The position numbers and the translations under genes were made by a program. A DNA stretch of 64,000 nt from Leucoraja erinacea (Eukaryota): the NCBI RefSeq assembly GCF_028641065.1, contig NC_073408.1:14322001-14386000 (forward strand). The letters run 5' to 3'. Shown piece after piece: positions 5,580 through 64,000 of the stretch. The notes below the pieces were generated by a model. That model was not told the DNA's origin, did no database searches, and saw only the letters and a program-made list of their open reading frames with translations. Positions within the stretch are counted from its first letter, which is position 1; each line of letters begins with the position of its first letter.

Positions 5580-5678
5580 CTTTCCGTTGCCTCTTGCAGT
5601 TCAGACAAACGTATATTATTGCCAAAATCATGGCAGCAGTTAGGGGGATCAGGACCAGAGCATAAAGAAAAGGATAAT
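5580..5678 (-). CDS. Gene A transmembrane exon DYPFLYALVLIPLTAAMILAIIYVCLNCKRQRK
   Basis: tttcacag acceptor, AAG|GTAAAA donor, 99 nt; uncharged hydrophobic helix followed by a basic stop-transfer segment. Confidence 0.9.
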
Positions 5679-5920: not shown

Positions 5921-6505
5921 CATACATAGACATAGAAAATAGGTGCATTAGTAGGCCATTCAGCCTTTCGAGCCTCCGTCATTCAATATGATCATGGCTG
6001 ATCATCCAACTCAGTATCCTGTACCTGCCTTCTTCCATACCCCCTGACTCCTTTAGCCACAAGGGCCACATCTAACTCCCTCTTAAATATAGCCAATGAA
6101 CTGGCTTCAACTACATTCTGTGGTTGATAATTCCAGAGATTCACCATTGGCTGTGTTAAAAATGTTTTTCTCATCTCAGTCCTAAAAGATTTCCCCTTTA
6201 TCCTTAAACTGTGACCCCTTGTTCTGGACTTCCCCAACATCGGGAACAATCTTCCTGCATCTAGCCTATCCAACCCCTTAAGAATTTTGTAAGTTTCTAT
6301 AAGATCCCTCCTCAATCTTCTAAATTCTAGCGAGTACAAGCCAAGTCTATCCAGCCTTTCTTCATATGAAAGTCCTGACATCCCAGGAATCAGCCTGGTG
6401 AACCTTCTCTGTACTCCCTCTATGGCAAGAATGTCCTTCCTCAGATTAGGAGACCAAAACTGTACGCAATACTCCAGGTGTGGTCTCACCAAGACTCTGT
6501 ACAAC
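5921..6505 (-). mobile_element. CR1 LINE 3' fragment (only in unit 1)
   Basis: LVRPHLEYCVQFWSP...VQRRFTRLIPG...LYSLEFRR; absent from B at ~26000. Confidence 0.9.
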
Positions 6506-6664
6506 TTTAATATATATGATTTGTAAAATAAATAAAATATTACAATTGATCAATCACTAAGATCAATAAAAAAGACATTGAACTAATTAAGCTGAGGTCT
6601 AAGAATGATTCTACCTCAATGAACATTGTTAGCTGTGCACATGTATAATTACATTTCTATTTAC

Positions 6665-6982
6665 CTTTCTGTTTTGTGTTTATCGAGATACTTCTGTTTC
6701 TCCAGCCGTAGTCGTTTTTTGCCATGCACCAATACATTCCTTCATCTTTACGCTGGAAACGTGTCCATTCTTTTGAACTGTTGAACCCGACTCCAGTTTG
6801 CAACGTTACATTATGATTCTCCGTGGCATTTGTCCAGAAAACAGTAGACACCGGATTACTATCTACGCGACAATTCAGTTCCAGGAATGAATCAGCAGCA
6901 ACAAAGATGATGCTATCATTGATCAGTCGAAAAGTATCCACTGCTTTCAACCTGTATGTTATTAATAGATCTTGTGGTCCAT
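6665..6982 (-). CDS. Gene A I/C2-set Ig domain exon
   Basis: ccgttag acceptor, G|GTAAAT donor, 318 nt; motifs YGP, LNCRVDSNP, W, DEGMYWCMAKNDYG. Confidence 0.93.
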
Positions 6983-8346
6983 CTAACGGTAAAGATAATG
7001 TACACTTTATTGTAGATTAAAGCAATGTGAAAAGAATTAACATGCAAGTAGACACAGAACAGCTATTCACAATCAAACTTTGCACTTCTGAAAGCTAATC
7101 ATTCTCAAGGGACCTCAGTATAACTCGGACTGCCACTGAAGCCAAGTTGGAAAGAATCCGATACGTAACAAAAAGCTAAGATTGTTCTTGTCTATGGAGA
7201 GTGAGGGATTGATGCGGAGAGGAAAGTGAATGCTAGAGTGAATGCTAGAGCTTAATGAACCATTTGCATGATGAAAGTTGAGATTCTTCGACATTACGAC
7301 TGGAGAAATGTAGCATTGTTCGAGGGTTATACAGCTGGTAGTAGAGAAATGAAGTGTTTGGTAAACGTAGCAAATGGAGGTCCAAATTCCTAGGGAATAT
7401 TGTTGGTGTGGCCATGAATAGAGGAGTTGATATTGAAAACAAAGTTAATGTAGGACAGAGGGCTATGAACTCAAAGACCTAAGGTTAATACAGGTACATA
7501 AGACGGGCATTGAAAATAGCGAGAAGAAGATACCACTCATTGCAAAAGCTTGCAGAGAAGAATCAACTTTTGTTGGTAGAGAAAGAGAGATATGAAGTCT
7601 AAACAAGCAGAGATGCAAACGGGTGAAGTGTTACAGGAGATGGTGGTGGTGAAAGGTTTGGTGAAAGGGAGCCTAGAACCTCTGTGAGACCGTAGCCAAG
7701 AAGTTTGGAGAAGGAGCAATTAGTTATACTTGAAATACTTGAAATACTTTTATCAATGCACACACGCACAATGAGGACTTAGATGGCAAAAGTCCAATTC
7801 TAAAATAAATAGGATAGAACATGAATATGGAAGGGAGAGGGATGATGAATATTGATCCACCCTGTAAATGTCATAAACTCTGATTGCGAAGGAAGGTTAG
7901 CAGGATTAGCTTTTAAGATTGCCTCAGTGGAGATGGGGAGACACACACATAGGATTACCAAGAGATATCTATAAATAAGCTTCAAACTGAACTGAGAATG
8001 ATTCAAATCTGGGAAATAATCATCATAGTTAGAAGACAATTAGGGGCAGATTAATTAAAAGCAATTGAGAAAGGTGCATTGAAAGTTTGGGTCTGAGTAA
8101 CAGGACAAGAGAGGAAGGCAAAATAGAAGAAACCAAGAACAATACAAATGAGAGAAAATGTAAGTGATAAAACTAATGGAATGGGTCAATGAGCAGGTAA
8201 TGTAGATGCAGAAGATGTTCAGTTACACTGGTATAGATGGTGATGTACAGTGCATTTCAGTTATAACACAACGATGTGCATACAATAAGAATTCAAAGAT
8301 TAGCAATACAGTGAATACCACTTCAAAAGTTATAGATGATACTTAC

Positions 8347-8637
8347 ACATAATATTTAGTTTGATCGTATTTACAGCTGGCCGTCTAAAAATGGAATGAT
8401 TAATCTGACAACTGCAAACAGTTCCATTGTCTTCCACTCTTGGGACAATCTTGTAATGACTGGTGGCAACTAGTGTGCCATTCCTGTCTCTTTCAAAAGT
8501 TGGTGCAGTGATAATTGTAGAAGTGCATGTCCATGTAAAGGAGATATCCTTGTCGTACAATCCCTTGCCAGTGCAGGTTAGAGTGGATTCATGACCAGCA
8601 ACCAAAGTATCACTCCGTATATACATTTCTGGAAGAT
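8347..8637 (-). CDS. Gene A C1-like Ig domain exon
   Basis: tctcag acceptor, T|GTAAGT donor, 291 nt; motifs LTCTGKGLY..ISFTW, DRNGT, CQINH. Confidence 0.92.
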
Positions 8638-9013
8638 CTGAGAGAAGATAAAGCATAAAGTATTAAACTATATATCACACATTTCAATGTTAGTGAAACT
8701 TACTGACACAGTAAGTTGTCCAAAATTCTGCTCTATATTCATAGAATATATGTTAAATTAATGATGTAGAATTATAAAATAATATAGCCCTTCTTTAGCT
8801 GAGACGCATCAAGGATCAAATATATGCTGGACCATTATAATATTACTCCATGGTCCTGGCAAAATGAGATCATGTATATCCAACAGACTCACAGTCTTTT
8901 GGTTAGTATTGGCGATACTCGTAATGCACAATAATGCACAGTAAAACATTTCAGTGAGAGACTAGTGGTAACTTGAGTTAATGATAATCACTGTAGAAAG
9001 TTATGGTGTAGAA

Positions 9014-9247
9014 CAAGAGATCCCAACCTGGGATAAATTTACCCCAGAGGGTAAATTTCGCCTACCCAGGGAGTAAATTTGTTGAGTCTGGATTTTGTAC
9101 ATATTTTTTCTCATTGACTGACTGTGTTTGGTTCTGGCATACCGGTATTTGTTCATCATTAGTTGTTCATATATAAGTGAAATAACATTGTTATGTGCTA
9201 TTAAAGTTGCCAGTGGTAATCGGGATGAAAATGGTTGAGAACCCCTG
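9014..9247. mobile_element. hAT/Charlie-type miniature inverted-repeat element (MITE); paralog at 29041-29275
   Basis: Imperfect terminal inverted repeats (TIRs) CAAGAGATCCCAACC / GGTTGAGAACCCCTG; 8-bp TSD GTGTAGAA/GTGTAGGA. Confidence 0.7.
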
Positions 9248-11513
9248 GTGTAGGAGATTTATTGAATACATGCTGCTCTAAAACATACGTTAAATTTACT
9301 CTCACTTCTCAAGTTCAAAGCCCTGTAAGTGATGCACTTCAAGTGCTCATTCAGGTACATGAAATTTGGTGAAAATTTCTACTTCTTTTACCCATTCTGG
9401 TGATGAGTTCCAGTCACTGCCACTGATTAAGTGAATTTATTTGTTTAAGAATGAATTGCAGATGCTGGAAAATCAAAGGTGCACATAAATGCTGGAGAAA
9501 CTCAGCGGGTGCAGCAGCATCTAGGAGCGAAGGAAGCTTCATAGATGCTGCTGCACCCACTGAGTTTCTCCAGCATTTTTGTGTACCTCCGAGTGAATTT
9601 ATTTGTTCACAACATCAACCCAATTCTTCTACCAGCTAAATTACATCTATGCTTCTAAGTTACTCCAGGCAACAAGATCCAAGTCCTTTCTGGTTTGTGT
9701 GTTGAGACCTCACGTAATTTAATGCACTGCAATTTAATTGCTCCTCAGACTAAATTGGTGCAAACAAAGGTGACCAAGGCAGTCATATAATTTCCAACCG
9801 CTTAGCACCCTGCTCTACTCTTTTCTCACCCATAGCTATGTGGCTAAGCATAGCTCCAATGCCATCTATCAACTCAACCATTGTGGTTAGCTGAATTATG
9901 GGTGGTGATCAGTCAGTGTGCAAGAGAGAGAGATGGAACAACTGGTTGAGTGGTGCTGCAACAACAAACTCTCACTCAAGGTCAACAAAACAAAGTAGCA
10001 AACCATTGACTTTGGAACGGTGAAGTCGGGCGACAACATGCAGTTTTTAAGATTGGGTCAATGGTGGAATGAGTTAGCAACTTCAAATTCCTGGATGATA
10101 ACATCTCAGATGACCTCTCTTAAGCAGAGCACATAGCTGTAATCATGAAAAAGATCTACCACTGCCTCTACTTTGTTAGAAGTTTAAAAAGATTTGGCAG
10201 GTTATGCAACATGCAAAGAAACTTCTACTGATGTACTGTAGGAAGTATTCTGACTGGTTGCATCTTGGGCTGCTATGGAAATTTCAATGCATAGGAACTC
10301 AAGAGGCTAGACTCAGCTCAGGCAATCACAACCACAGGCCTCCCCACCTACATGCCTCAAGATGGTGGCATCTATTATCTCTCCATCCAAGCCTTGCCCT
10401 CTTCACACTGTTACCATAGGGCAAGGTATAAAAGCCTAGAGTATCACACCACCAGGTTCAGAAACCACTACTTTCCTACAACTTTTTTGAACCAACCCAC
10501 ACGACCCCAATCCTTCCACGACAATGGAACACCATGGACTTGTTTGTTTTACTTATTGTGTTTTACAGTCTTCTTCCATTTTTTAGTCTTGTAGAATTTT
10601 ATGTGATTAAATGTGATTATGTAATAAATTTACTTATAATTTATGTTTCTGTGTGCAGATTTTTGTTGCACCTATACCTCACCGTTCTTGTGCCAATGAC
10701 AATAAACAGCTTGACTTGGCTGAGCTCTGTTTCCATTAATTCTTAGTACAAGAAGTGAACTCCCCTTAAAATGTTCCCTTCCATGCACCATCCCTATCTA
10801 CCCACCATTGCTCACTCTGGGAAAGAGCTGCCAATTGCTATCCATTTCAATTTGCTTTTCCATTCCCATACTGACCTGTCATCCCTTCCTCCATTGGCAG
10901 ATTGAGATCTATCACAAACTGAATCCTAACTGAATGCAGTCAAGCAAACTATCTCAAAGAGTTATTTTTTTAACTGTTGTAAAACCAGCTCATCCTTTGG
11001 TATGGACAGAATAGAATGTGAAAAGAAAGAGAAATGGAGCAATATTGTCACTGTTGGTATTCATATACGATTTAAGATCAAATGAGACAACGCAACAGAA
11101 TCACAAGCCGTGTATTACTAAAAAAAGCTGAAAACACCAACCTTGAAGTACCTCTGTGAAACATGGAACTGCAGATTCTGGTTTACAAAAGAAAGAGTGC
11201 TGGAGTAACTCAGCGGGTCAGTCAACGTCTCAGGGGAACATGGTCTGAAGAAGGTCTAGACCAGATATGTTCTCCTGGAATGCTGCCTGACCCATTGAAT
11301 TGCTCCAGCCCTTTGTGTCGTCATATGCCTTATTAATTTAGTTGAAACGAAAAGTGTTCATGTCATCTTATTTCTAATTGGGTCTGCTTGGTATTATGTC
11401 TGTTAAAGTATCTGTAAATGGCTTGGTTCAAATGTCACTGCGTTTAACATTATTGATTTCATAAACATAAAGTGGCGAGACTGGAGATCATCATAGTATT
11501 ACAAATACTTTAC

Positions 11514-11861
11514 CATAAACCTGTATTCGTGTTCCTTGGCCCTTTTCATGAACTGGAGGGAAGACATTTGGTACCTTCACCTCACAAATGTAGTCGTAAA
11601 CAGATTGATCAAACGATACATTTTCAATCTTCAGTGATACTGTACAGTTGTTGAAACCACGCCAGAGGGGGTGAGGAATGCAGACCGAGTTGTTCGTGTT
11701 GTAAGTAACATCATCCTCTCTAGGCGATTTCCGATACCATGAAACGCGGAGCCAGGCATTCACACTTCCATTATAACTAAACGTACAGTTTAACGTGACG
11801 GACTCGCCTCTCCACACCTTGACCAGACGTGGCTGGATCAAATTTGCGATTAGCGGAACTC
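11514..11861 (-). CDS. Gene A V-set domain exon with J-like GQGTRIQV
   Basis: ttttccaccag acceptor, G|GTAAAG donor, 348 nt; motifs VTLNC, VSWYR, LKIENV, YIC, GxGT. Confidence 0.95.
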
Positions 11862-12617
11862 CTGGTGGAAAATAAATACATTTGTCAATGATACTCCCGT
11901 TAGTAGTTCAATAAACATTCACTTTACACACTGAACGAGGGATTGGTTTTCTAACGGAAACAATACTTAAAAGAAACGCATTCAAATCTGACGTTTTCAA
12001 ACAACGATTCTCGATTCCATGATGGTTGCAAATGCCTTCTCTCAGCAGATTCGGTGGCAGGTGGCACCGTGATATTTGGACGCTAGAAAAGACACAAGTG
12101 GCTGGAGTAACTCGGCGGGTCAGGAAGCATCTCAGGAGCACATGGATGAGATGATTTTTCAAAGTCTGGAAAAGGGTCCCGACCCGAAACGCCTCCTATC
12201 CATGTTCTCCTGGGATGCTGCCTGCCTGACCCGCTGAGTTGCTCCAGCACTCTGTGTCTTCACTTGCAAACCAGAATCTGCTGTTCTTCGTTTCTACACC
12301 TTCGTAAGATTCTTGCTTTGTGCTCTCTGATGGAGTTGTAGTGACCGAATTATATCTCAAATGTTTTAACTATTTGAATCTTTGCAGGCAATCGCAGTCA
12401 ATGAAGATGCAAAACTTGTATTCCAACATTAAACATATAGATTAAATGGAGACTAAATATTTTGAAGGGTTTCTCGGCCTTTGAGCAGAGATATTAATCG
12501 ACTTGCTGTTTTAATAACAGACTCGCTCCTGAACTACCTATCGATTCAATATGCCACATAATGTAGATCCTCATCACGGCTCCTTGGTCCACAGATTGTC
12601 CGATCAACATAACTTGC

Positions 12618-12666
12618 CTTGTGTTCCTGCATGCAGGATGAAAAGCAGCTTCAGGAGGAGTTGCAT
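12618..12666 (-). CDS. Gene A leader exon MQLLLKLLFILHAGTQ(G)
   Basis: ATG followed by a hydrophobic signal peptide; ends AAG|GCAAGT (GC donor, phase 1); conserved in copy B. Confidence 0.8.
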
Positions 12667-12826
12667 CTTTGCCCGGTTCTGACCGGCCCTGGAAATGTTA
12701 AACTCTCCGCCCGCGGGGTCAGCTCCAATCGTGCAAATGTTAAGTGAGGATGATCCGTCCGCTGTGAACTCGCATCGCAGACGGAGAATATCAGAGACTG
12801 TGAAATGCCAGAGGGTGTACTGAGCA

Positions 12827-12866
12827 GAGGAAGTTACGTTCGAGCCGAAGGAAGTTTTCACTTTCC
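12827..12866 (-). promoter_or_regulatory. ETS/PU.1-like (GAGGAAGT, AAGGAAGT) and ISRE/IRF-like (GGAAAGTGAAAAC) motif cluster upstream of gene A
   Basis: 160-200 bp upstream of the ATG; identical in B (32321-32360). Also TATAAAAG on minus at ~13030 and CAGGAAGTG at ~13110. Confidence 0.45.
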
Positions 12867-15800
12867 CTAGATTAATATCACTGCCTTTGTTCAAGCAAAC
12901 ACTGAGGATCTGTGTCAATGAAATCCACAGAGTGCGTGTTGGAAGAGAACGGAATCAAAAACAATGTCACAGCATCTAAAACAGCTACCCCAGTCAATGC
13001 GCCGTCAGAGGGACTTCAGTGCCTTTTATAATTCGCTGCAGCAAGGTTGTCTTACTTCAAATACGTTTCTTTCACCCATTGAAGCATTTTGATAAAGTTT
13101 AACTCTCACTTCCTGCACTGGCACTACTGAAAAATGTTTTTTCCGCCCTTGTTCAACCTATAGCACATAGGTTTAAAGTGAAGGGGGAGTTAATAGGAAT
13201 CTGACGGGCAACTTTTTTTACACAATGACAAAAATGAGAGAAAAGGGAGCACAGGATTACCTGAAATTGCAGCACATGTATGAATCTGTTTTTCATTGTT
13301 CATACTAAATTGTAGATTACCCAGATGAGATCTGAAGTGCTGTTCTTCCAATCTGGATTAGACCTCACCATGGTCATGCGAAGGCCTAGGACAGACTGGT
13401 CAGTGTGAGTAGGAAGGGGAGATGAAAGGTCTGGCAAATGGGAAGACAGAATAGCCATTAGGGACAGAGCACTTCCACGAGGCAGCTGCTTGATCTACAG
13501 CTGGTCTCGCCGATGTAGAGGAGATCACATCAGGAATACAAATTGAGTAGACAAAGTTGTAGCAGATTGTGAATCTACATCTGACCTGGAAATACTGTTT
13601 AGGTCACTGGATGGTAGTGAGGACATAGGTGTAGGAACAAGTGTAGCATCTCTTACAGTTGCAGTAGAAAGAGCTAGGGGGGCAGGGAGAGGTGGGTGGG
13701 AATGTATAAGTGAATTAGTGAGTGGCAGAGGGAAAGCAGGAAGAGATGGGGTGGGGAAGATGTGACTGCTGGTGGGATCCCATCGCAGCTGGTGGCAAGG
13801 TAAAGACCAAGGGAATAGTATCTTTGTTAAATGGAGGAAATGTGAACGGGAGGTCCATCGACCACAGCAGAGGAGAAATCACATTTTGTGGAGGACATTT
13901 GAGATGTTATAGAGTCATAGGGTCATACAGCATGGAAACAGGCCCATTGGCCCACCTTGCCAACATGTCCCAGCTACACTAGTCCCTCCTGTCTGCTTTT
14001 GGTCCATATCCCACTAAACCTGTCCTATCCACATACCTGTTTAAATGTTTCTTAAACACTGCAAGAGATAGTACCTGCCTCAATTACCTCCTCTGGCAGC
14101 TCGTTCCATGCACCCTCCACCCTATCAGGTTCCTATTAAGCCTTTCCCCTTAAACCTTATTACCTTAAACCTATGATGAAAATAACTTTACCAGAGCCTG
14201 TGTTCTGGAAAGGAAAGTCTCTTCTTGAGAGTAGATGCAACAGAAAAGGTGACACTGAGAGAAAGGGAAAGAGAGGTGGACTTACAGCACTGTGGTGCTG
14301 GCTCGAAGGACCAAATGACCTCGACTTGCACCTATTTTCTTTGTTTACAAGAGACCATGTGGGAGGAAGTCTTGTCAAGATCATTGTGCGAGTCAGTTGG
14401 ACTATGTTAAATGTCAGTAGATTGTTAGTCTCCTGAGACAGTGACAGAGAGATACAGAAAAAGGGAGAGATGCAAGAAATGGCCCAACTGAATTTTAGAT
14501 TCATAGATAGAAGATCATAGTGAAGGTGATAAACAGAGGCATTAAACTGTTTACTTGATTTTGACTCTACTCTTCTGTATTATATTCTGTGGTCAGATTG
14601 TGAATTAACCTCTTATATGGCATATGTGGAACTGCCCTGCATCTGTACACGGCCATATCATAACCAGACCTATTGGCACAGTAGATGCCGTTCCTATCTT
14701 TTCTACCAGTGCGCCACCTTGTGCATAAATTTAACATAGCAGTTACATGCTTAAAATACATTTGGTTTGGTGCATTAAATGTAATATAACATGGGTATAA
14801 TGATAAAATATAATGTAAGTTGGCACAGATTTGGTGGGTCAAAGTGTCTGTTTTCACGCTGAATCTCTCCATTACGGTGACTACCTTTTGCACCCTATTT
14901 GGTGAAAAATCTAGGCCTTTCCCAGTGGTGATCAGTTGTGAGAAATCAATGTACTCAAGTACGATGGCTCATGTGATAAATTGGCCCATTATTTGGTTGT
15001 CTTCTCTCACTGCTTTGCAGATGAAGAAGAAAGGCATTTATGTGGAGAAGCTAGATAGTCAGCAAGTAAGAACAATTCTACTTTGGAAAAATAAGGGTAT
15101 CAAGCAAGAACCAATTACTTTGTTGAGGTAGCTAAAGTAAATACTATTTAAGAATTTAAGAAATAATTTAAGACTAAGGGCATTTAGAATGGAGACGCCG
15201 AAACACTTTTTCTCACAGAGAGTTGTGAGTCTGTGGAATTCTCTGCCTCAGAGGGCGGTGGAGGCCGGTTCTCTGGATACTTTCAAGAGAGAGCTAGATA
15301 GGGCTCTTAAAGATCAACCAACTTCCAACAATCAACCAACTTCCAAATTCGCAAGTGTGTCGGATAATCAGACTTTTACTTAGCTCCATATTTGTAGTTT
15401 TCTTACTTTCAGAAAAACTGTTGCTACAGTTGCTGCAGTTATCTGCACTTTGATTTATGTACTGAATCCTAGTGTAGTTCTTGCACCATCTGCTGGTCAA
15501 ATATAAAACTGGATGTAGTTCAGAGAAGATTTACGAGGATGTCTGTGAAATTCTCTGCTTTAGGCAGAGGCAGGTTCTCTGGATGTTTTCAAGAGAGAGC
15601 TAGATAGGGCTCTTAAAAATAGTGGAGTCAGGGGATATGGGGAGTAGGCAGGAACGTGGTACTGATTGGGGATGATCGGCCATGATCACATTGAATGGCG
15701 GTGCTGGCTCGAAGGGCTGAATGGCCTACTCCTGCACCTATTGTCTATTGTCTGTTGTCTTGATGTTGCTGGGACTTGAGCTAAAGGGAGATGCTATTTA

Positions 15801-25669: not shown

Positions 25670-25768
25670 CTTTTTGTTACCTATTTCGGAACAGGCAAAA
25701 ATATATTATTGCCAAAATGATGGCAGTAGTTAGGGGGACCAGGACCAGGGCATAAAGCCAAGGATAAT
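25670..25768 (-). CDS. Gene B TM exon DYPWLYALVLVPLTTAIILAIIYFCLFRNR*
   Basis: Homologous to the A TM exon; CAA>TAA stop lies before the retained donor at 25669. Confidence 0.8.
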
Positions 25769-26168
25769 CTGTGAAAGAAAATTCAAGGTTTCAACTAAAT
25801 GTAATGTTTCAGCTCTGAGAAACATAAAAAGTATAAAAAAAATACACTGCAATCGTTTTACTATATTTGACAGCAGGGTACATATTTCTTTCAAAGAGAC
25901 ACACTGCCATTTATAAACAAAACTACAGCACTCTAATGTTTAAATGTTCCAATTCTTCAATGGAAACACTATAAAATCAAAGCATTTGAAGATGACAGCA
26001 GTAAATCGTCTTTACTACATATGATTTGTAAAATAAATAAAATATTACAATTGATCAATCACTAAGATCAATAAAAAAGACATTGAACTAATTAAGCTGA
26101 GGTGTTATTTGCTAAGAATGATTCCACCTCAATTACCTAGGCACATGTATAATTACATTTCTATTTAC

Positions 26169-26486
26169 CTTTCCGTTTTGTGTTTATCGAGATACTTCTG
26201 TTTCTCCAGCCGTAGTCGTTTTTTGCCATGCACCAATACATTCCTTCATCTTTACGCTGGAAACGTATCCATTCTTTTGAACTGTTGAACCCGACTCCAG
26301 TTTGCAACGTTACATTATGATTCTCCGTAGCATTTGTCCAGAAAACAGTGGGCACCGGATTACTATCTACGCGACAATTCAGTTCCAGGAATGAATCAGC
26401 AGCAACAAAGATGATGCTATCATTGATCAGTCGAAAAGTATCCACTGCTTTCAACCTGTATGTTATTAATAGATCTTGTGGTCCAT
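26169..26486 (-). CDS. Gene B I/C2-set exon
   Basis: 318 nt, AG/GT; 3 amino-acid differences from A. Confidence 0.93.
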
Positions 26487-28372
26487 CTAACGGTAAAGAT
26501 AATGTACACTTTATTGTAGATTAAAGCAATGTGAAAAGAATTAACATGCAAGTAGACACAGAACAGCTATTTACAATCAAATTTTGCACTTCTGAAAGCT
26601 AATCATTCTCAAGGGGCCTCAGTACAACACGGACTGCCACTGAAGCCAAGTTGGAAAGAATCGAATACGTAACAAAAAGCTAAGCTTGTTCTTGTCTATG
26701 GAGAGTGAGGGATTGATGCGGAGAGGAAAGGGGAGTGAATGCTAGAGCTTAATGAACCATTTGCACGATGAAAGTTGAGAATCTTCGACATTACGACTGG
26801 AGAAATGTAGAATTGTTCGATGGTTATACAGCTGGTAGTAACGAGATGAAGTGTTTGGTAAACGTAGCAAATGGAGGTCCAAATGCCTAACCGTTTGAAG
26901 AGTCAACCCAGTAATATAATTCTTAGGTGATTTCCTTCACCTGTCGGAACACAGGTGGGTGTGGGGTTGTAAGTGATTTATACGGCTACCACAAATGATC
27001 ACAGATACCCCTGCATATGGTGAGAGTACTAGGGCCACCTGTGAAGGGAATGCTAGAGTAACTCAGCGGGCCAGGCAGCATCTCTGAAGAGGGAATGGGT
27101 GACGCTTTGGGTCGAGACCCTACTCCCGCTGAGTTACTCCAACTATCTTCTTTTTAAACCAGCATCTGCAGTTTCATCCTACACATGATAAGGGAATATT
27201 GTTGGTGTGGCCATGAATAGAGGAATTGATATTGAAAACAAAGTTATTGCAGGACAGAGGGCTATGAACTCAAAGACCTAAGGTTAAGACAAGTACATAA
27301 GACGGGCATTGAAAATAGCGAGAAGAAGATACCACTCATTGCAATGAAGTACAAAACAAGCAGAGATGCAAAATACAATACAATACTATACAAAACAATA
27401 CAATTTATTGTCAACGAAATTCTGTTTCCACAGCCATACAAACAAAGACAATTTCCTACAGACATACACACAATTTAATTCACACAAACAAGTCCCCCCC
27501 CCCCCCCCCCCTGCTCCCCACATATACCACATTTAAAACTAGTATTAAAAAAAACACCAACACTACATTTAACTAGACAAAAAATAAAAAAAAGACAGAA
27601 AGGCTGTAGGGGGCGCTGCAACGGGTGAGTCGCGCCACCAACCAAAGGGTGAAGTGTTGCAGGAGATGGATAAGGACAGAAGAAAGTGAGTTTTGGTGAA
27701 AGGGAACATAGAACCTCTGTGAGGCCGTAGCCAAGAAGTTTGGAGAAGGAGCAATTAGTTATATTTGAAATACTTTTATCAATGCACACACGCACAATGA
27801 GGACTTAGATGGCAAAAGTCCAATTCTAAAATAAATAGGATAGAACATGAATATGGAAGGGAGAGGGATGATGAATAATGATCCACCCTGTAAGTGTCAT
27901 AAACTCTGATTGCGAAGGAAGGTTAGCTGGATTAGCTTTTAAGATTGCCTCAGTGGAGGTGGGGAGACACACACATAGGATTACCAAGAGATATCTATAA
28001 ATAAGCTTCAAACTGAACTGAGAATGATTCAAATCTGGGAAATAATCATCATAGTTAGAAGACAATTAGGGGCAGATTAATTAAAAGCAATTGAGAAAGG
28101 TGAATTGAAACTTTGGGTCTGAGTAACAGGACAAGAGAGGAAGGCAAAATAGAAGAAACCAAGAACAATATAAATTAGAGAAAATGTAAGTGATAAAACT
28201 AATGGAACTGGGTCAATGAACAGGTAAAGTAGATGCAGAAGACATTCAGTTAGACTGGTATAGATGGTGATGTACAGTGCATATCAGTTATAACACAACA
28301 ATGTGCATACAATAAGAATTCAAAGATTAGCAACCATTGAATACCACTTCAAAAGTTATAGATGATACTTAC

Positions 28373-28663
28373 ACATAATATTCAGTTTGATCGTATTTAC
28401 AGCTGGCCGTCTAAAAACGGAATGATTAATCTGACAACTGCAAACAGTTCCATTGTCTTCCACTCTTGGGACAATCTTGTAATGACTGGTGGCAACTAGT
28501 GTGCCATTCCTGTCTGTTTCAAAAGTTGGTGCAGTGATATTTGTAGAAGTGCATGTCCATGTAAAGGAGATATCCTTGTCATGCAATCCCTTGCCAGTGC
28601 AGGTTAGAGTGGATTCATGACCAGCAACCAAAGTATCACTCCGTATATACATTTCTGGAAGAT
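28373..28663 (-). CDS. Gene B C1-like exon
   Basis: 291 nt, AG/GT; 4 amino-acid differences from A. Confidence 0.92.
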
Positions 28664-30269
28664 CTGAGAGAAGATAAAGCATAAAGTATTAAACTATATA
28701 TCACACATTTCAATGTTAGTGAAACTTACTGACAGAGTAAGTTGTCCAAAATTCTGCTCTATTTTCATAGAGAATATGTTAAATTAATGATGTAGAATTA
28801 TAAAAAAAATATAGCCCTTCTTTAGCTGAGACGCATCAAGGATCAAATATATGCTGGACCATTATAATATTACTCCATGGTCCTGGCAAAATGAGATCAT
28901 GTATATCCAACAGACTCACAGTCTTTTGGTTAGTATTGGCGATACTTGTAATGCACAGTAATGCACAGTAAAACATTTCAGTGAGAGAATAGTGGTAACT
29001 TGAGTTAATAATAATCACTGTAGAAATTTATGGTATAGAACAAGAGATCCCAACCTGGGATAAATTTACCCCCAGAGGGTAAATTTCGCCTACCTAGGGG
29101 GTAAATTTGTTGAGTCTGGATTTTGTACATATTTTTTCTCATTGACTGACTGTGTTTGGTTCTGGCATACCGGTATCTGTTCATCATTAGTTGTTCATAT
29201 ATAAGTGAAATAACATTGTTATGTGCTATTAAAGTTGCCAGTGGTAATCGGGACGAAAATGGTTGAGAACCCCTGGTGTAGGAGATACATGCTGCTCTAA
29301 AACATACGTTAAATTTACTCTCACTTCTCAAGTTCAAAGCCCTGTAAGTGATGCACTTCAAGTGCTTATTCAGGTACATGAAATTTGGTGAAGATTTCTA
29401 CTTCTTTTACCCATTCTGGTGATGAATTCCAGTCACTGCCACTGATTAAGTGAATTTATTTGTTTAATAAGGAATTGCAGATGCTGGAAAATCGAAGGTA
29501 CACAAAAATGCTGGAGAAACTCAGCGGGTGCAGCAGCATCTATGGAGCGAAGGAAGCTTCATAGATGCTGCTGCACCCGCTGAGTTTCTCCAGCATTTTT
29601 GTGTACGTCCAAGTGAATTTATTTGTTCACAACATCAACCCAATTTTGTCTACCAGCTAAATTACATCTATGCTTCTAAGTTACTCCGGGCAACGAGATC
29701 CAAGTCCTTTCTGGTTTGTTTGTTGAGACCTCACATAATTTAATGCACTGCAATTTAATTGCTCCTCAGACTTAATTGTTGCAAACAAAGGAGACCAACC
29801 CTGCTCTGCTCTTTTCTCACCCATAGCTATGTGGCTAAGCATAGCTCCAACGCCATCTATCAACTCAACAATGACACCATAGTGGTTAGCTGAATTAGGG
29901 GTGGTGATCAGTCAGTCCGCAAGAGAGAGATGGAACAACTGGTTGATTGGTGCTGCAACAACAAACTCTCACTCAAGGTCAACAAAACAAAGTAGCAAAT
30001 CATTAACTTTGGAATGGTGAAGTCGGGCGACAACATGCAGTTTTTAAGATTGGGTCAATGGTGGAATGAGTTAGCAACTTCAAATTCCTGGATGATAACA
30101 TCTCAGATGACCTCGCTTAAGCAGAGCACATAGCTGTAATCATGAAAAAGATCTACCACTGCCTCTACTTTGTTAGAAGTTTAAAAATTAATTGGGTCAA
30201 TAATATTATTGATTTCATAAACATAAAGTGGCGAGACTGGAGATCATCATGGTATTACAAATACTTTAC

Positions 30270-30617
30270 CATAAACCTGTATTCGTGTTCCTTGGCCCGT
30301 TTCATAAATTGGAGGGAAGACATTTGGTACCTTCACCGCACAGATGTAGTCGTAAACAGAGTGACCAAACGATACATTTTCAATCATCAGTGATACTGTA
30401 CAGTTGTTGAAACCACCCCAGAGGGGGTGAGGAATGCAGAGCGAGTTGTTCGTGTTGTAAGTAATATCAGCCCCTCCAGGCGATTTCCGATACCATGAAA
30501 CGCGGAGCCAGGCATTCACACTTCCATTATAACTAAACGTACAGTTTAACGTGACGGACTCGCCTCTGCACACTTTGACCAGACGTGGCTGGATCAAATT
30601 TGTGATTAGCGGAACTC
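30270..30617 (-). CDS. Gene B V-set (VJ-type) exon
   Basis: 348 nt, canonical AG/GT; 15 amino-acid differences from A. Confidence 0.95.
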
Positions 30618-30667
30618 CTGGTGGAAAATAAATACATTTGTCAATGATACTCCCGTTAGTAGTTCAA

Positions 30668-31407
30668 TAGGGTGATTTCACCTAAGGTCAAATGAGCGTA
30701 GATCCCCCCTCACGTGACCGAAAATTTTTACTGGAGGACATCTCTCAGTTTGGTACATGTAAGTGAATGGGGAAACACGCACTTTCCCACCCGTTAAAAA
30801 CATGGAAAACGGCCGATTTTTGAGCTGAAATTTTCTGTGCTAGTCGGGGTGACCGTAAAGCACAGCGACCTAAAATTTCAGGCAAAAAAAAAGATAGAAA
30901 GTAAGGTAATTACAAGAGGGAACTGAAGGTAGAAAGCAGTGGAAGTGAACAGCTGACATTTGCCGTGGTGATTTTAAGATCCAAAATATCGGGAATTATC
31001 GCGTTTGCTCGCTGAATTTCATCAAAAGGAAGGCATTATTAACTTACTTTTGATGAAATTTAGCGAGCAAACGCGATAATTCCCGATATTTTGGATCTTA
31101 AAATCTCCACGGCAAATGTTTGCTGTTCAATTCCGCTGTGTTCCACCTTCAGTTCCCTCTTGTATTTACCTTACTTTCTATCTTTTATTTTGCCTGAAAT
31201 TTTAGGTCGCTGTGCTTCACGGTCACCCCGACTAGCACAGAAAATTTCAGCTCAAAAATCGGCCGTTTTCCATGTTTTTAACGGGTGGGAAAGTGCGTGT
31301 TTCCCCATTCACTTACATGTACCGAACTGAGAGATGTCCTCCAGTTAAAATTTTCGATCACGTGAGGGGGGGTCTACGCTCATTTGACCTTTGGTGAAAT
31401 CACCCTA
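30668..31407. mobile_element. 740-bp foldback element (two ~365-bp inverted arms) in gene B intron 1
   Basis: TAGGGTGATTTCACC...GGTGAAATCACCCTA; ~10-nt loop at 31033-31042; empty site in A at ~11911. Confidence 0.9.
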
Positions 31408-32113
31408 TAAACATCCACTTTACACACTGAACGAGGGATTGGTTTTCTAACGGAAACAATACTTAAAAGAAACGCATTCAAATCTGACGATTTCAAACAC
31501 CGATTCTCGCTTCCATGATGGTTGCAAATGCCTTCTCTCAGCAGATTCGGTGGCAGGTGGCACCGTGATATTTGGACGCTAGAAAAGACACAAGTGGCTG
31601 GAGTAACTCGGCGGGTCAGGAAGCATCTCAGGAGCACATGGATGAGATGATTTTTCAAAGTTTGGAAAAGGGTCCCGACCCGAAACGCCTCCTATCCATG
31701 TTCTCCAGGGATGCTGCCTGCCTGACCCGCTGAGTTGCTCCAGCACTCTGTGTCTTCACTTGCAAACCAGAATCTGCTGTTCTTCGTTTCTACACCTTCG
31801 TAAGATTCTTGCTTTGTGCTCTCTGATGGAGTTGTAGTGACCGAATTATATCTCAAATGTTTTAACTATTTGAATCTTTGCAGGCAATCGCAGTCAATGA
31901 AGATGCAAAACTTTTATTCCAACATTAAAAATATAGATTAAATGGAGACTAAATATTTTGAAGGGTTTCTCGGCCTTTGAGCAGAGATATTAATCGACTT
32001 GCTGTTTTAATAACAGACTAGCTCCTGAACTACCTATCGATGCAATATGCCACATAATGAAGATCCTCATCACGGCTCCTTGGTCCACAGATTGTCCGAT
32101 CAACATAACTTGC

Positions 32114-32162
32114 CTTGTGTTCCTGCATGCAGGAGGAAAAGCAGCTTCAGGAGGAGTTGCAT
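32114..32162 (-). CDS. Gene B leader exon MQLLLKLLFLLHAGTQ(G)
   Basis: Paralog of the A leader with the same GC donor. Confidence 0.8.
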
Positions 32163-32320
32163 CTTTACCCGATTCTGACCGGCCCTGGAAATGTTAAACT
32201 CTCCGCCCGCGGTCAGCTCCAATCGTGCAAATGTCAAGTGAGGATGATCCGTCCGCTGTGAACTCGCATCTCAGACGGAGAATATCAGAGACTGTGAAAT
32301 GCCAGAGGGTGTACTGAGCA

Positions 32321-32360
32321 GAGGAAGTTACGTTCGAGCCGAAGGAAGTTTTCACTTTCC
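32321..32360 (-). promoter_or_regulatory. ETS + ISRE-like cluster upstream of gene B
   Basis: Same motifs as in gene A. Confidence 0.45.
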
Positions 32361-35300
32361 CTAGATTAATATCACTGCCTTTGTTCAAGCAAACACTGAG
32401 GATCTGTGTCAATGAAATCCACAGAGTGCGTGTTGGAAGAGAACGGAATCAAACACAATGTCACAGCATCTAAAACAGCTACCCCAGTCAATGCGCCGTC
32501 AGAGTGACTTCAGTGCCTTTTATAATTCGCTGCAGCAAGGTTGTCTTACTTCAAATAAGTTTCTTTCACCCATTGAAGCATTTTGATAAAGTTTAACTCT
32601 CACTTCCTGCACTGGCACCACTGAAAAATGCTTTTTCCGCCCTTGTTCAACCTATAGCATTAGGTTTAAAGTGAAGGGGGAGTTAATAGGAATCTGACGG
32701 GCAACTTTTTTTACACAATGACAAAAATGAGAGAAAAGGGAGCACAGGATTACCTGAAATTGCAGCACATGTAATAATCTAATTTTCATTGTTCATACTA
32801 AATTGTAGATTACCCAGATGAGATCTGAAGTGCTGTTCTTCCAATCTGGATTAGACCTCACCATGGTCATGTGAAGGCCTAGGACAGACTGGTCAGTGTG
32901 AGTAGGAAGGGGAGATGAAAGGTCTGGCAACTGGGAAGACAGAATAGCCATTAGGGACAGAGCACTTCCACGAGGCAGCTGCTTGAACTACAGCTGGTCT
33001 CGCCGATGTAGAGGAGATCACATCAGGAATACAAATTGAGTAGACAAAGTTGTAGCAGATCGTGAATCTACATCTGACCTGGAAATACTGTTTAGGTCAC
33101 TGGATGGTAGTGAGGACATAGATGTAGGAACAAGTGTAGCATCTCTTACGGTTGCAGTAGAAAGAGCTAGGGGGCAGGGAGAGGTGGGTGGGAATGTATA
33201 AGTGAATTAGTGAGTGGCAGAGGGAAAGCAGGAAGAGATGGGGTGGGGAAGATGTGACTGCTGGTGGGATCCCATCGCAGCTGGTGGAAAGGTAAAGACC
33301 AAGGGAATAGTATCTTTGTTAAATGGAGGAAATGTGAACGGGAGGTCCATCGACCACAGCAGAGGAGAAATCACATTTTGTGGAGGACATCTGAGATGTT
33401 ATAGAGTCATAGGGTCATACAGCATGGAAACAGGCCCATTGGCCCACCTTGCAAACATGTCCCAGCTACACTAGTCCCTCCTGTCTGCTTTTGGTCCATA
33501 ACCCACTAAACCTGTCCTATCCACGTACCTGTCTAAATGTTTCTTAAACACTGTAAGAGATAGTACCTGCCTCAATTATCTCCTCTGGCAGCTCGTTCCA
33601 TGCACCCTCCACCCTATCAGGTTCCTATTAAGCCTTTCCCCATAAACCTTATTACCTTAAACCTATGATGAATATAACTTCACCAGAGCCTATGTTCTGG
33701 AAAGGAAAGTCTCTTCTTGAGAGTAGATGCAACAGAAAAGGTGACACTGAGAGAAAGGGAAAGAAAGGTGGACTTACAGCACTGTGGTGCTGGCTCGAAG
33801 TACCAAATGACCTCGACTTGCACCTATTTTCTTTGTTTACAAGAGACCATGTGGGAGGAAGACTTGTCAAGATCATTGTGGGGGTTAGTTGGACTATGTT
33901 AAATGTCAGTAGATTGTTAGTCTCCTGAGACAGTGACAGAGAGATACAGAAAAAGGGAGAGATGCAAGAAATGGCCCAACTGAATTTTAGATTCATAGGG
34001 AGAAGATCATAGTGAAGGTGATGAACAGAGTCATTAAAGTGTTTACTTGATTTTGACTCTACTCTTCTGTATTATATTCTTGGGTCAGATTGTGAACTAA
34101 CCTCTTATATGGCATATGTGGAACTGCTCTGCATCTGTACACGGCCATATCATAACCAGACCTATTGGCACAGTAGATGCCATTCCTATCTTTTCTACCA
34201 GTGCGCCACCTTGTGCATAAATTTAACATAGCAGTTATATGCTTAAAATACATTTGGTTTGGTGCATTAAATGTAATATAACATGGGTATAATGATAAAA
34301 TATAATGTAAGTTGGCACAGATTTGGTGGGTCAAAGTGTCTGTTTTCACGCTGAATCTCTCCATGACGGTGACTACCTTTTGCACCCTATTTGGTGAAAT
34401 ATCTAGGCCTTTCCCAGTGGTGATCAGTTGTGAGAAATCAATGTACTCAAGTACGATGGCTCATGTGATAAATTGGCCCATTATTTGGTTGTCTTCTCTC
34501 ACTGCTTTGCAGATGAAGAAGAAAGGCATTTATGTGGAGAAGCTAGATAGTCAGCAAGGAAGAACAATTCTACTTTGGAAAAATAAGGGTATCAAGCAAG
34601 AACCAATTACTTTCTTGAGGTAGCTAAAGTAAATACTATTTAAGAATTTAAGAAATAATTTAAGAATAAGGGCTAAGCCATTTAGAACAGAGACGACAAA
34701 ACACTTTTTCTCACAGAGAGTTGTGAGTCTGTGGAATTCTCTGCCTCGGTGGAAGGCAGTGGAGGCCAGTTCTCTGGATGCTTTCAAGAGAGCGCTAGAT
34801 AGGGCTCTTAAAGATAGCGGAGTCAGGAGATGTGGGGAGAAGGCAGGAACGGGGATACTGATTGGGGATGATCAGCCATGATCACATTGAATAGCAGTGC
34901 TGGCTCGAAGGGCCGAATGGCCTACCCCTGCACCTAGTGTCTATTGTCTATTTATGAAATAGCTCCAGTGTTGAATTTGTTTTTTTATATTATAGACCAT
35001 AGAAAATATAGCACAGCAATACTATATAATATTTTTTCATATGAATTGAAAATGTGTAGGGTGTGAATAGGAACAACATTCAATAATCTGGAAAAGTTGA
35101 CAATCAACCAACTTTCAAATTCCCAAGTGTGTCGGATAATCAGACTTTTACTTGGCTCCATATTTGTAGTTTTCTTGCTTTCAGAAAAACTGTTGCTACA
35201 GATGCTGCAGTTATCTGCACTTTGATTTATGTTCTGAATCCTAGTGTAGTTCTTGCACCATCTGCTGGTCAAATATAAAACTGGATGGAGTTCAGAGAAG

Positions 35301-48077: not shown

Positions 48078-48784
48078 GTATTAAAATACAACTCTCAAAT
48101 ATTCAGATTGCCTTATAGTTCAATATTTGTTTAGGTTACTTTTATATTCAGTTATGTAATGAATACTCTATACCTCATTTCATGCATCCCTATTCAATAT
48201 TCCAAATAATTAAAAATGGCTTCATTTCAATAAATGTTCATCAAAAATTAATAATCCAATAAAATAAAAATACACCATAAATTAAAAAAATGCACAATCA
48301 TATATATTTTAAAAATAATTGATGCAATGGGAAGCCAATGTTAAACTTAGGCCCTCTACTCCCATCTGCTTTCATCTGCTCATCATCTGCCCCTCCCCTG
48401 GATCCATTTGCACATTCTCTGCTCCCCATCTGGTTCTACGGGTTGCCAACTAATCCCCATCCCATTCTCCCACATCCAACTACATACTGGTTATCTTTTC
48501 CAATCCCCCCAACGTCCTGTTGCATGGACTCACCCAAAACATATAATACCTTCAGCCTCCCGACATTCTGCTTGACCCACTGAGTTCTTCCAGCATTCTG
48601 TTTTTGTCTCCAGTTCAGCATTGCTTTTAGTCTAGTTTTGTTTAGTTTAGAGATACAGTTTGGAAACAGGCCCTTTGGCCCACCAAGTTCACGCTGATCA
48701 ATGATCCCCTGGTGTTGTTTAAAGTGAGCTTCCGTGGGACTATTAATGGATGTAAAAATAACAAATTTATTTATGTTCCATCAG

Positions 48785-49132
48785 GAGTTCCGTTGATCAC
48801 AGAGTTGACCCAGCCACGTCTGGTCAGTGTGTGGCGGAGCCAATCCGTCACGTTAAACTGTACATTTACCTATAATGCAAGTGTGAATGCCTGGCTCCGT
48901 GTTTCCTGGTATCGGACATCGCCTGAAGGGGCTGATGCTACTTACAAAATGGACAACTTGCTCTGCATTCCTCACCCCCTCTGGGATGGTTTCAACAACT
49001 GTACGGTATCACTGAAGATTGAAAATGTATCGTTTGGTCACTCTGTTTACGATTACATTTGTGAGGTGAAGTTACCAAATGTCTTCCCTCCAATTCATGA
49101 AAAGGGCCAAGGAACAAGAATACAGGTTTATG
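48785..49132 (+). CDS. Gene C V-set (VJ-type) exon
   Basis: ccatcag acceptor, G|GTAAAG donor; 93/116 amino acids identical to gene A V. Confidence 0.95.
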
Positions 49133-51529: not shown

Positions 51530-51856
51530 TCCCAGAATCTACACCAAAAATTCTAATGACTCAGGGAGATTTAATAGCAGAGAAAGCATCTGTTTTGTAC
51601 TGCCATGCATGGGGATTTTATCCTGAGAACATCACAATGCAATGGCAACATCCTCACAAAACTCAAGCTACAAAATCAGATGTTATTATTACCACAAAAC
51701 TCTCCCCTTCCAGGAACTCTGATGGCACATTTAATGCAACAAGTCAAATTAGTTTTACTCCCACCTTGCAAGACCACAGGACAGTCTGTACTTGTCAGGT
51801 TCTTCATACAACAAGCAAAGAGTGGATAATGCAACACATAACACTCAACGTTAATT
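51530..51856 (+). CDS. Gene C C1-set exon
   Basis: ttccag acceptor (alternative in-frame acceptor at 51536), T|GTAAGT donor; canonical C1 motifs LYCHAWGFYPENITMQW, NSDGTF, CQVLH. Confidence 0.93.
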
Positions 51857-55046: not shown

Positions 55047-55367
55047 ATGGTCCACAGCCAGCAATACATTACAGGAATTCTATTGCGCATCAATTGCAGC
55101 CTCTGCTCCAAGACATCATCTATGTTGAACCTCAGTCGTATCTTCAACTAAATTGTACCACGGACAGTAATCCAATATCCACGGTCATCTGGATGAAATC
55201 GGGAGAGCAAACTGAAAGGATACAATTGACTATTGGATTAAGTCATTCAAATCTGCAGAAAGAGAAGATCGATGATTCCTTCAATGGAAAGTATATCTGC
55301 AGAGCTTACAATTCATATGGCGCCAAAGAATCTTCTGTGAGAGTATACGTGACATCAGATTGGAAAA
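55047..55367 (+). CDS. Gene C I/C2-set exon
   Basis: YGPQ...LNCTTDSNP...W...GKYICRAYNSYG; A|GTAAGT donor; acceptor at the homologous position is an unusual GAG. Confidence 0.85.
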
Positions 55368-57990: not shown

Positions 57991-58068
57991 GTCATTTCCC
58001 TGTCCGATTTGTAACGGTGCCCATCTTCGTGACGACTGTGATTTTGTTACTGCTCTGCTGCAGGAAAG
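57991..58068 (+). CDS. Gene C TM exon SHFPVRFVTVPIFVTTVILLLLCCRK
   Basis: ttgtcttacag acceptor, AAG|GTAAAT donor, phase 1-1, hydrophobic. Confidence 0.88.
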
Positions 58069-63965: not shown

Positions 63966-64000
63966 GAGCGTGTGACATCATTTGAAGATGGACACAAAGC

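What the first reader, a model, noticed from the sequence alone, without database searches (positions are those of the whole stretch)
30270..30617. Excess of amino-acid-changing substitutions in the V exon (A vs B)
Manual count gives 17 nucleotide differences in 348 nt: 15 nonsynonymous and 2 synonymous. C1 has 4 and the I domain 3 amino-acid changes. Changes cluster at residues 48-60 and 85-107, and positions 48, 52 and 68 differ in all three genes. This suggests diversifying selection on the ligand surface, although the counts are small.
Basis: seen in the sequence. Interest (0 to 1): 0.7.

Follow-up and report, generated by a model that had tools for sequence, protein, structure and literature searches.

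The report
Skate paired immune receptor cluster
Three neighbouring skate genes encode look-alike immune receptors predicted to give opposite signals (one 'stop', one 'go', one tailless), and their shared outermost domain carries more amino-acid changes than nearby non-coding DNA, which likely, but not certainly, reflects selection by a pathogen.

Summary
The count is right: V exons A and B differ at 17 of 348 bases, 15 amino-acid-changing and 2 silent. Exact pieces of both versions occur in other sequencing runs. Within the exon the excess is not significant (dN/dS 2.5-3.6, p 0.08-0.17). Against non-coding DNA of the same gene-conversion tract (2.5% divergence) it is 2.1-2.5-fold (p 0.003-0.008; 0.01-0.04 with overdispersion). 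The claimed clustering and the three-way sites do not exceed chance. The larger picture: a skate cluster of three V-C1-I receptor genes. A has ITIM-type motifs. B stops just after its membrane segment. C has a membrane arginine kept in stingray, sawshark and paddlefish, and a tyrosine-free tail. C's C1 and I domains are about 30% identical to A's, yet its V exon nests among skate A-type V exons (AU p 9e-6). This is the known paired-receptor pattern (CEACAM, Siglec-11/16, PIR). I did not find this family described in the searched library, and its database name 'Siglec' fails a membership test. Diversifying selection is likely (about 60%), not shown.

The parts
30270..30617 (-). Gene B V exon (the finding): joined VJ-type IgV domain, Cys25-Cys92 plus a second invariant pair Cys60/Cys72, G-x-G-T motif
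   Evidence: (V-set 39 bits)
32114..32162 (-). Gene B leader exon (coding part), GC donor
28373..28663 (-). Gene B C1 exon
   Evidence: (C1-set 29.5 bits)
26169..26486 (-). Gene B I-set exon
25670..25768 (-). Gene B transmembrane exon; uncharged helix, then a stop (25677-25679) a few residues after the membrane; no tail exons found
   Evidence: Amblyraja P0003 also ends right after the helix
12618..12666 (-). Gene A leader exon (coding part), GC donor
11514..11861 (-). Gene A V exon
8347..8637 (-). Gene A C1 exon
6665..6982 (-). Gene A I-set exon
5580..5678 (-). Gene A transmembrane exon; its tail exons with three tyrosine motifs lie 3-14 kb left of the window (L007, L008)
48785..49132 (+). 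Gene C V exon, 89% identical to B; homology to A/B limited to about 48716-49191
51530..51856 (+). Gene C C1 exon, 28% amino-acid identity to B
55047..55367 (+). Gene C I-set exon, 33% amino-acid identity to B
57991..58068 (+). Gene C transmembrane exon with an arginine near the outer end of the helix
59152..59176 (+). Gene C small cytoplasmic exon (predicted from splice signals, phase and homology)
   Evidence: compare P0023, P0024
60818..60917 (+). Gene C last coding exon; short tail without tyrosine
6505..15300 (.). A side of the A/B gene-conversion tract (promoter to I exon), 2.5% non-coding divergence; partner about 26010-34800
26010..34800 (.). B side of the A/B gene-conversion tract

Best explanation
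The exon is the outer V domain of gene B in a three-gene skate cluster that likely works as a paired immune-receptor set, whose shared V exon has been spread by inferred gene conversion and then likely driven apart by episodic diversifying selection. Shown by sequence: A has three tyrosine motifs of ITIM/ITSM type. B has A's ectodomain and no tail. C lies in the opposite orientation, has an A-like V on old, divergent C1/I domains, a conserved membrane arginine and no tail tyrosine. A and B differ by 2.5% inside the ectodomain tract and 6-9% outside it. Inferred: A inhibits through SHP-type phosphatases. C activates through an FcR-gamma/CD3-zeta-type adaptor. B is a non-signalling decoy. Conversion keeps all three able to bind the same ligand. 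A ligand that changes quickly, most simply a pathogen protein that exploits A, favours new V residues after each conversion: about 9 changes on the A lineage and 6 on the B lineage.
For: V dN is 2.1-2.5 times the non-coding rate, Fisher p 0.003-0.008, while V dS equals it. V vs C1+I nonsynonymous p 0.002. Branch dN/dS 3.6 (A, B) vs 0.54 (C), LRT p 0.021. Only 1 of 17 differences is a CpG transition. Both lineages carry the excess, including tail-bearing A. Skate A vs Amblyraja A: V 22/113 differences, C1 8/96, I 2/105, tail 1/127; V also exceeds C1+I in the Mobula pair (p 0.0003) and the Cetorhinus-Carcharodon pair (p 0.0012). An ITIM-bearing transcript P0006 differs from A at 8 of 115 V residues. 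Conversion: divergence steps from 9.1% (3' intron) to 2.5% (tract) to 6.5% (upstream). In the I-domain tree skate A and B group together apart from Amblyraja A and B, with moderate support. The C1 tree separates 4 C-type from 22 A-type rows at 100/100, but the V tree rejects C-type monophyly (p-AU 9e-6). The membrane Arg is present in 4 of 4 C-type proteins seen (window, P0023, P0024, P0038/P0044).
Against: The exon-internal test fails (p 0.08-0.17), and so does V vs C1+I as an N:S table (p 0.17). Tract divergence is overdispersed: negative-binomial p 0.01-0.04 for the nonsynonymous count and 0.04-0.05 for all 17 changes, and one of 16 non-overlapping masked 348-site non-coding windows also reaches 17. 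The exon was picked after looking. Over the longer A-C and B-C distances dN/dS is 0.57-0.86. 4 of 7 independent ortholog comparisons show no V excess (Rhinoraja, Rhincodon-Stegostoma, Scyliorhinus, Chiloscyllium). No enrichment on the GFCC' face (p 0.18). The changed columns are those that vary in the family anyway (p 0.03), which relaxed constraint also predicts. No leader exon was found for C. The Arg leaves only 18 hydrophobic residues after it and could sit just outside the membrane. No ligand, cell type or signalling was tested.
Confidence: 0.58

Rival explanations
1. Paired-type cluster with gene conversion, but the V excess reflects relaxed constraint plus chance: surface residues drift nearly neutrally and the V exon sits in a slightly older piece of the conversion mosaic.
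For: 15:2 is not different from neutral within the exon. Non-coding windows in the tract range from 2 to 17 differences per 348 sites. Changed sites fall in columns that vary across sharks. No significant clustering. 4 of 7 ortholog pairs show no V excess.
Against: Neutral drift gives dN at or below the non-coding rate, not twice it, and a folded V domain with 10 invariant columns should sit below 1. An older tract would also raise dS and the flanking introns, which are 2.4%, 1.4% and 2.9%.
Confidence: 0.3
2. Selection is real but serves divergence of A and B in binding a host ligand (escape from concerted evolution after duplication), not a pathogen arms race.
For: The changes split between the two lineages. 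B's E93A, H104Y and K106T are predicted neighbours on strands F and G (DSSP; side-chain direction inferred from Ig numbering, recalled).
Against: H104/K106 versus Y104/T106 segregate on otherwise B-like contigs (X1 record 2), and A-type transcripts carry B-type residues (P0006, P0007). The differences therefore look like a shared pool of alleles, not fixed specialisation.
Confidence: 0.09
3. B is a decaying pseudogene or the duplication is an assembly artefact, so the differences carry no meaning.
For: B has a stop in its membrane exon and a 742-bp transposon 50 bp from the V acceptor. NCBI's model XP_055516779.1 joins B's ectodomain to A's membrane exon and tail. No RNA read with B's M77 was seen among 7 covering that site.
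Against: A and B differ by 9% and by several insertions outside the tract. A tailless B-type protein is also predicted in Amblyraja (P0003). B's L, V, C1 and I exons are open with intact splice sites, and its C1+I dN/dS vs A is 0.5-0.65. More changes map to A than to B. Exact pieces of both V versions occur in other runs.
Confidence: 0.03

Closest known systems
Paired opposing receptors homogenised by gene conversion: Xenopus and mammalian CEACAM1/3-type pairs (PMC5112662, abstract and passages read); KLRC/KLRI/KLRB/Ly49/PIR 'merohomogenization' (PMC3210942, abstract read); Siglec-11/16 (PMC5701461, search listing only)
   Same: ITIM gene and activating-type gene clustered in opposite orientation; conversion confined to the ligand-binding V exon; nonsynonymous changes accumulate after conversion.
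   Different: Another protein family, in a cartilaginous fish. A third, tailless copy is converted over its whole ectodomain. Enrichment on the CC'C''FG face, reported for Xenopus CEACAMs, is not significant here.
SIRP family (SIRP-alpha/beta/gamma)
   Same: Joined VJ-type V plus C1, tyrosine-motif tail and a short-tailed charged partner. In the PDB profile search SIRP-alpha (2wng, E 2.6e-22) is the best listed non-antibody chain whose best stretch covers V+C1. The paddlefish C-type relative is auto-named SIRP-alpha-like.
   Different: The third domain is I-set, not C1. The partner has Arg, where SIRP-beta1 has Lys (recalled). The V has an extra Cys60/Cys72 pair. Identity to SIRP is about 18%.
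Siglecs / MAG / CD22 (NCBI automatic names 'Siglec-6/8/12/13/14', 'MAG-like')
   Same: V plus two constant-type Ig domains, ITIM/ITSM-type tail. MAG Ig1-3 is the top fold hit (Z 15.2, rmsd 10.8), tied with nectin-3 (Z 14.8, rmsd 6.7).
   Different: No arginine at the F-strand position after the second Cys in the 3 skate genes or 12 other A-type proteins. The canonical Cys25-Cys92 pair is kept.
CD28/CTLA4/CD28H family (PMC11599192, parts 3-4 of 6 and passages read; 9 supplements searched)
   Same: V with Y-x-C, prolines in the FG loop and G-x-G 15 residues after the Cys; a second Cys pair (as recalled for CTLA4/CD28).
   Different: Three Ig domains rather than one. Two prolines at Cys+9/+10 rather than PPP at +7 to +9. 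The synteny markers named for the nine members differ from the CBS-like neighbour seen here. 0 of 5 accessions searched occur in the supplements.

Membership tests
Paired opposing immune receptors | Clustered genes with closely similar ligand-binding domains | tested here: met
   Three V exons within 38 kb, 89-95% identical, the only three matches in the genome search
Paired opposing immune receptors | One member with ITIM/ITSM motifs | tested here: met
   Gene A tail has three tyrosine motifs, conserved from skate to elephant shark
Paired opposing immune receptors | One member with a charged membrane residue and no ITIM | tested here: met
   Gene C Arg, conserved in stingray, sawshark and paddlefish; skate tail has no tyrosine. 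Depth of the Arg in the membrane not determined.
Paired opposing immune receptors | Homogenisation restricted to the ligand-binding part | tested here: met
   V tree conflicts with C1 tree, p-AU 9e-6; homology of C to A/B limited to about 475 bp around the V exon
Paired opposing immune receptors | Shared ligand, opposite signals, expression in the same cells | not testable with these tools
   Only 9 RNA reads in 4 sampled runs
Positively selected domain | dN/dS significantly above 1 within the coding sequence | tested here: inconclusive
   p 0.08-0.17 within the exon; p 0.003-0.04 against non-coding DNA
Siglec | Essential F-strand arginine that binds sialic acid (feature and position recalled; equivalence to residue 93 inferred from Y-x-C spacing, not from a structural superposition) | tested here: not met
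   Residue 93 is E/A/E in skate and never R in 12 other A-type proteins
Siglec | B-E intrasheet disulfide replacing the B-F one (recalled) | tested here: not met
   Cys25 (strand B) and Cys92 (strand F) are invariant in 20 of 20 rows
SIRP | Joined VJ-type V domain followed by C1 | tested here: met
   G107/G109 invariant; C1-set over cut-off
SIRP | Third domain also C1 (recalled) | tested here: not met
   Third domain scores I-set/Ig_3, no C1-set hit
SIRP | CD47 binding; orthology by tree or synteny | not tested
   No binding test; no tree with SIRP rows was built
CD28/CTLA4 family | Single extracellular V domain | tested here: not met
   Three Ig domains; family definition from PMC11599192

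The most novel reading that the evidence does not exclude
An ancient, uncharacterised VJ-C1-I receptor family: an inhibitory member in all cartilaginous fish lineages sampled, an arginine-type activating partner reaching back to the shark/paddlefish split, and in skates a tailless decoy. It forms a three-way inhibitory/activating/decoy set whose shared V exon is in an active arms race with a skate pathogen. It would be the deepest-branching vertebrate example of paired-receptor conversion known to me, and a structural link between SIRP-like and CD28-like germline VJ receptors.
Probability: 0.25. Interest if true: 0.68.

Novelty: new member of a known kind. Interest (0 to 1): 0.45.

Why it matters
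If true, the paired-receptor strategy described in mammals and frogs (inhibitory receptor, activating counter-receptor, V exon kept in step by gene conversion) also operates in cartilaginous fish, in a family that databases mislabel as Siglec. It gives a specific, testable target for skate immunity and a germline VJ-C1 receptor relevant to the origin of antigen receptors. The substitution excess alone is ordinary for immune-receptor V domains.

Tried and rejected
Exon-internal dN/dS by Nei-Gojobori (kappa 1-4) and GY94 likelihood: not significant. Clustering, front-face and three-way-site tests: not significant. CpG hypermutation as the cause: rejected, 1 of 17. Import of C sequence into A or B as the cause: no clean tract, since B-C and A-C differences are interspersed along the exon; short exchanges are not excluded, and some contigs mix A-type and C-type letters. 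No RNA holder was listed. Raw RNA reads gave 5, 2, 0 and 2 reads in four runs sampled at 5-6%, too few for alleles, splicing or gene assignment. The leader exon of C was not found by blastn or by an ATG-donor scan; a 60-bp likeness at about 47034-47094 lacks the ATG and hydrophobic run. The single-sequence V model (pLDDT 64) matched only generic antibody/TCR V domains. Atlas searches gave only automatic Siglec/nectin/Ig names. The CD3 family search rang nowhere, so synteny rests on a CBS-like neighbour and one of two CBL-family genes on the same contig. Literature searches (6 accessions, 0 papers) found no description of this family; subscription papers are not searched, and bioRxiv supplements could not be seen. 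Earlier scan notes: none. No complex prediction was run.

Full report
What is there. The stretch 30270-30617 is a 348-nt exon on the minus strand that encodes an Ig V-set domain. The genome search finds three copies, all in this window: A (11514-11861, minus, 95% to B), B, and C (48785-49132, plus, 89%); the protein search also finds only these three among 34 candidates scored. Each V exon is followed by a C1-set and an I-set exon. The ectodomain of B is identical to NCBI XP_055516779.1 of Leucoraja erinacea, auto-named Siglec-13. That model takes its membrane exon and tail from gene A. A-type relatives were found in skates, rays, sharks and elephant shark (16 proteins).

The observation. A and B differ at 17 of 348 bases, 15 nonsynonymous and 2 synonymous; C1 has 4 and I has 3 amino-acid changes. 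The counts are as reported. Contigs from other runs reproduce B pieces with 0 differences, and one contig carries A's seven letters between 30367 and 30507 (one of these runs may be the assembly's own sample, and I do not know whether the two coded organisms are the window's species). Consensus error is therefore unlikely. Further contigs carry other combinations, for example a B-like piece with H104 and K106 (X1 record 2). The table showed 40 of 60 variant rows and 26 of 37 pieces.

Is it more than chance? About three quarters of random changes are nonsynonymous, so 15:2 gives dN/dS 2.5-3.2 with Fisher p 0.09-0.17; likelihood tests give p 0.11 and 0.079. The clusters (11 of 15 in the best two windows, p 0.11) and the three-way sites (3 against about 2 expected, p 0.35) are not significant. 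A stronger baseline exists because A and B are alike over about 9 kb. Non-coding divergence in that tract is 149 of 5891 sites (2.5%; 2.8% without masking near indels). V synonymous sites match it (2 observed, 2.2 expected). V nonsynonymous sites show 15 against 6.1-7.2 expected (p 0.003-0.008), while C1 and I fall below it (ratios 0.4-0.8). Allowing for overdispersion, p is 0.01-0.04, and the exon was chosen after looking. CpG decay explains 1 of 17 changes. With C and two other skates as outgroups, about 9 changes map to A and 6 to B; positions 51, 93 and 103 are ambiguous. In other species, V exceeds C1+I in 3 of 7 independent ortholog comparisons and not in 4 (protein level only, no dS). 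Verdict: moderate support for diversifying selection, none for a particular surface.

Gene conversion. A-B divergence is 9.1% in the intron 3' of the membrane exon, 2.5% from the I exon to the promoter, and 6.5% further upstream. Amblyraja has both an A-type and a B-type membrane exon (P0004, P0003), so the duplication is older than that split; yet the I domains group by species, with moderate support. For C the contrast is sharper: C1 and I are 28% and 33% identical to B and group with stingray, sawshark and paddlefish C-type proteins (C1 100/100; I 71/87, weak). The V exon instead falls among skate A-type V exons, and a tree holding the C-type V domains together is rejected (p-AU 8.7e-6, and 8.4e-6 without paddlefish; elephant shark and two Logan rows left out). 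DNA homology covers only the exon and 60-70 bp on each side. C's V is closer to Rhinoraja V (19-21 of 115 differences) than A's is (25-27), so A and B have moved faster since the transfer. The direction of transfer is inferred from the tree, not shown.

Signalling anatomy. A's tail exons lie left of the window and encode three tyrosine motifs of ITIM/ITSM type, conserved to elephant shark. B's membrane exon has a stop a few codons after the helix, and no B tail exons were found. C's membrane exon has an arginine near the outer end, also present in P0023 (stingray), P0024 (sawshark) and P0044 (paddlefish). C's predicted tail has no tyrosine; the stingray tail has one. By established knowledge (FcalphaRI, NKp46, LILRA, PIR-A; recalled) such an arginine pairs with FcR-gamma or CD3-zeta. 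C's leader exon was not found, so C's integrity is open. RNA evidence is 9 reads in 4 sampled runs, on the strand expected for sense transcripts if the libraries are of the usual stranded type; all 7 reads covering codon 77 carried the A/C-type letter.

Mechanism. Shown: architecture, motifs, divergence profile, tree conflict, substitution counts. Inferred: A inhibits, C activates, B is a decoy; conversion keeps their V domains in step; a fast-changing ligand, most simply a pathogen adhesin or mimic, selects new V residues. I put the paired-type, converted cluster at about 0.85 and diversifying selection on V at about 0.6-0.65.

Comparison with what is known. It works like Xenopus and mammalian CEACAM pairs, where conversion of the N exon between oppositely oriented genes is followed by nonsynonymous change (PMC5112662; abstract and passages), and like the 'merohomogenization' of KLRC, Ly49 and PIR (PMC3210942; abstract). 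It fails two Siglec tests and the SIRP third-domain and CD28 single-domain tests (see membership table). It is not among the nine CD28-family members of PMC11599192. A review of cartilaginous-fish immunity has 0 hits for Siglec, SIRP, NKp30 or MDIR (PMC6795676, term search only). Nine paper searches, one by six accessions, found no description of the family; subscription journals are not covered. Skate MDIR receptors (recalled) are a separate published family that I could not compare.

Verdict. Real counts, a partly supported interpretation, and a known evolutionary pattern in an apparently unnamed chondrichthyan receptor family. New member of a known kind; interest 0.45.

Noticed in passing
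window 30668-31409: 742-bp palindromic non-autonomous transposon (arms 94% alike) inserted at a TA site in B's leader-V intron, absent from A. The genome search scored 40 of 1673 candidates, all 94-100% alike.
   Followed up: partly
window 32104-32113 and 12608-12617 (minus): The leader exons of A and B use a GC splice donor.
   Followed up: no
P0001 / XP_055516779.1: The NCBI model joins B's leader-V-C1-I exons to A's membrane and tail exons 20 kb away: either mis-annotation or real read-through splicing that would give the ITIM tail two alternative ectodomains.
   Followed up: partly
L007, about 1.1 kb left of the window start (minus): Short alternative last exon inside gene A matching the end of Rhinoraja P0002; would give a tyrosine-free isoform of A.
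   Followed up: no
L012:8611-8973 (minus): Another, unrelated V-set exon about 19 kb right of the window, lacking the second canonical Cys; best non-IL1RAPL hit CRTAM (E 0.005); B7/CD2-like by recall.
   Followed up: partly
L015:6779-7084 (plus): Exon of a cystathionine beta-synthase-like gene about 43 kb left of the window; one of two CBL-family genes lies on the same contig.
   Followed up: partly
window 10190-11445: About 1.25 kb present in A's V-C1 intron and absent from B.
   Followed up: no
P0010 (Hemiscyllium) and P0030 (Chiloscyllium): One shark model has a tandemly duplicated V exon; another joins V directly to the tail.
   Followed up: no
window 17299-18848 (minus) and 62221-64000: Broken retroelement reverse-transcriptase/integrase-like fragments, recognised by eye in the ORF list.
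   Followed up: no
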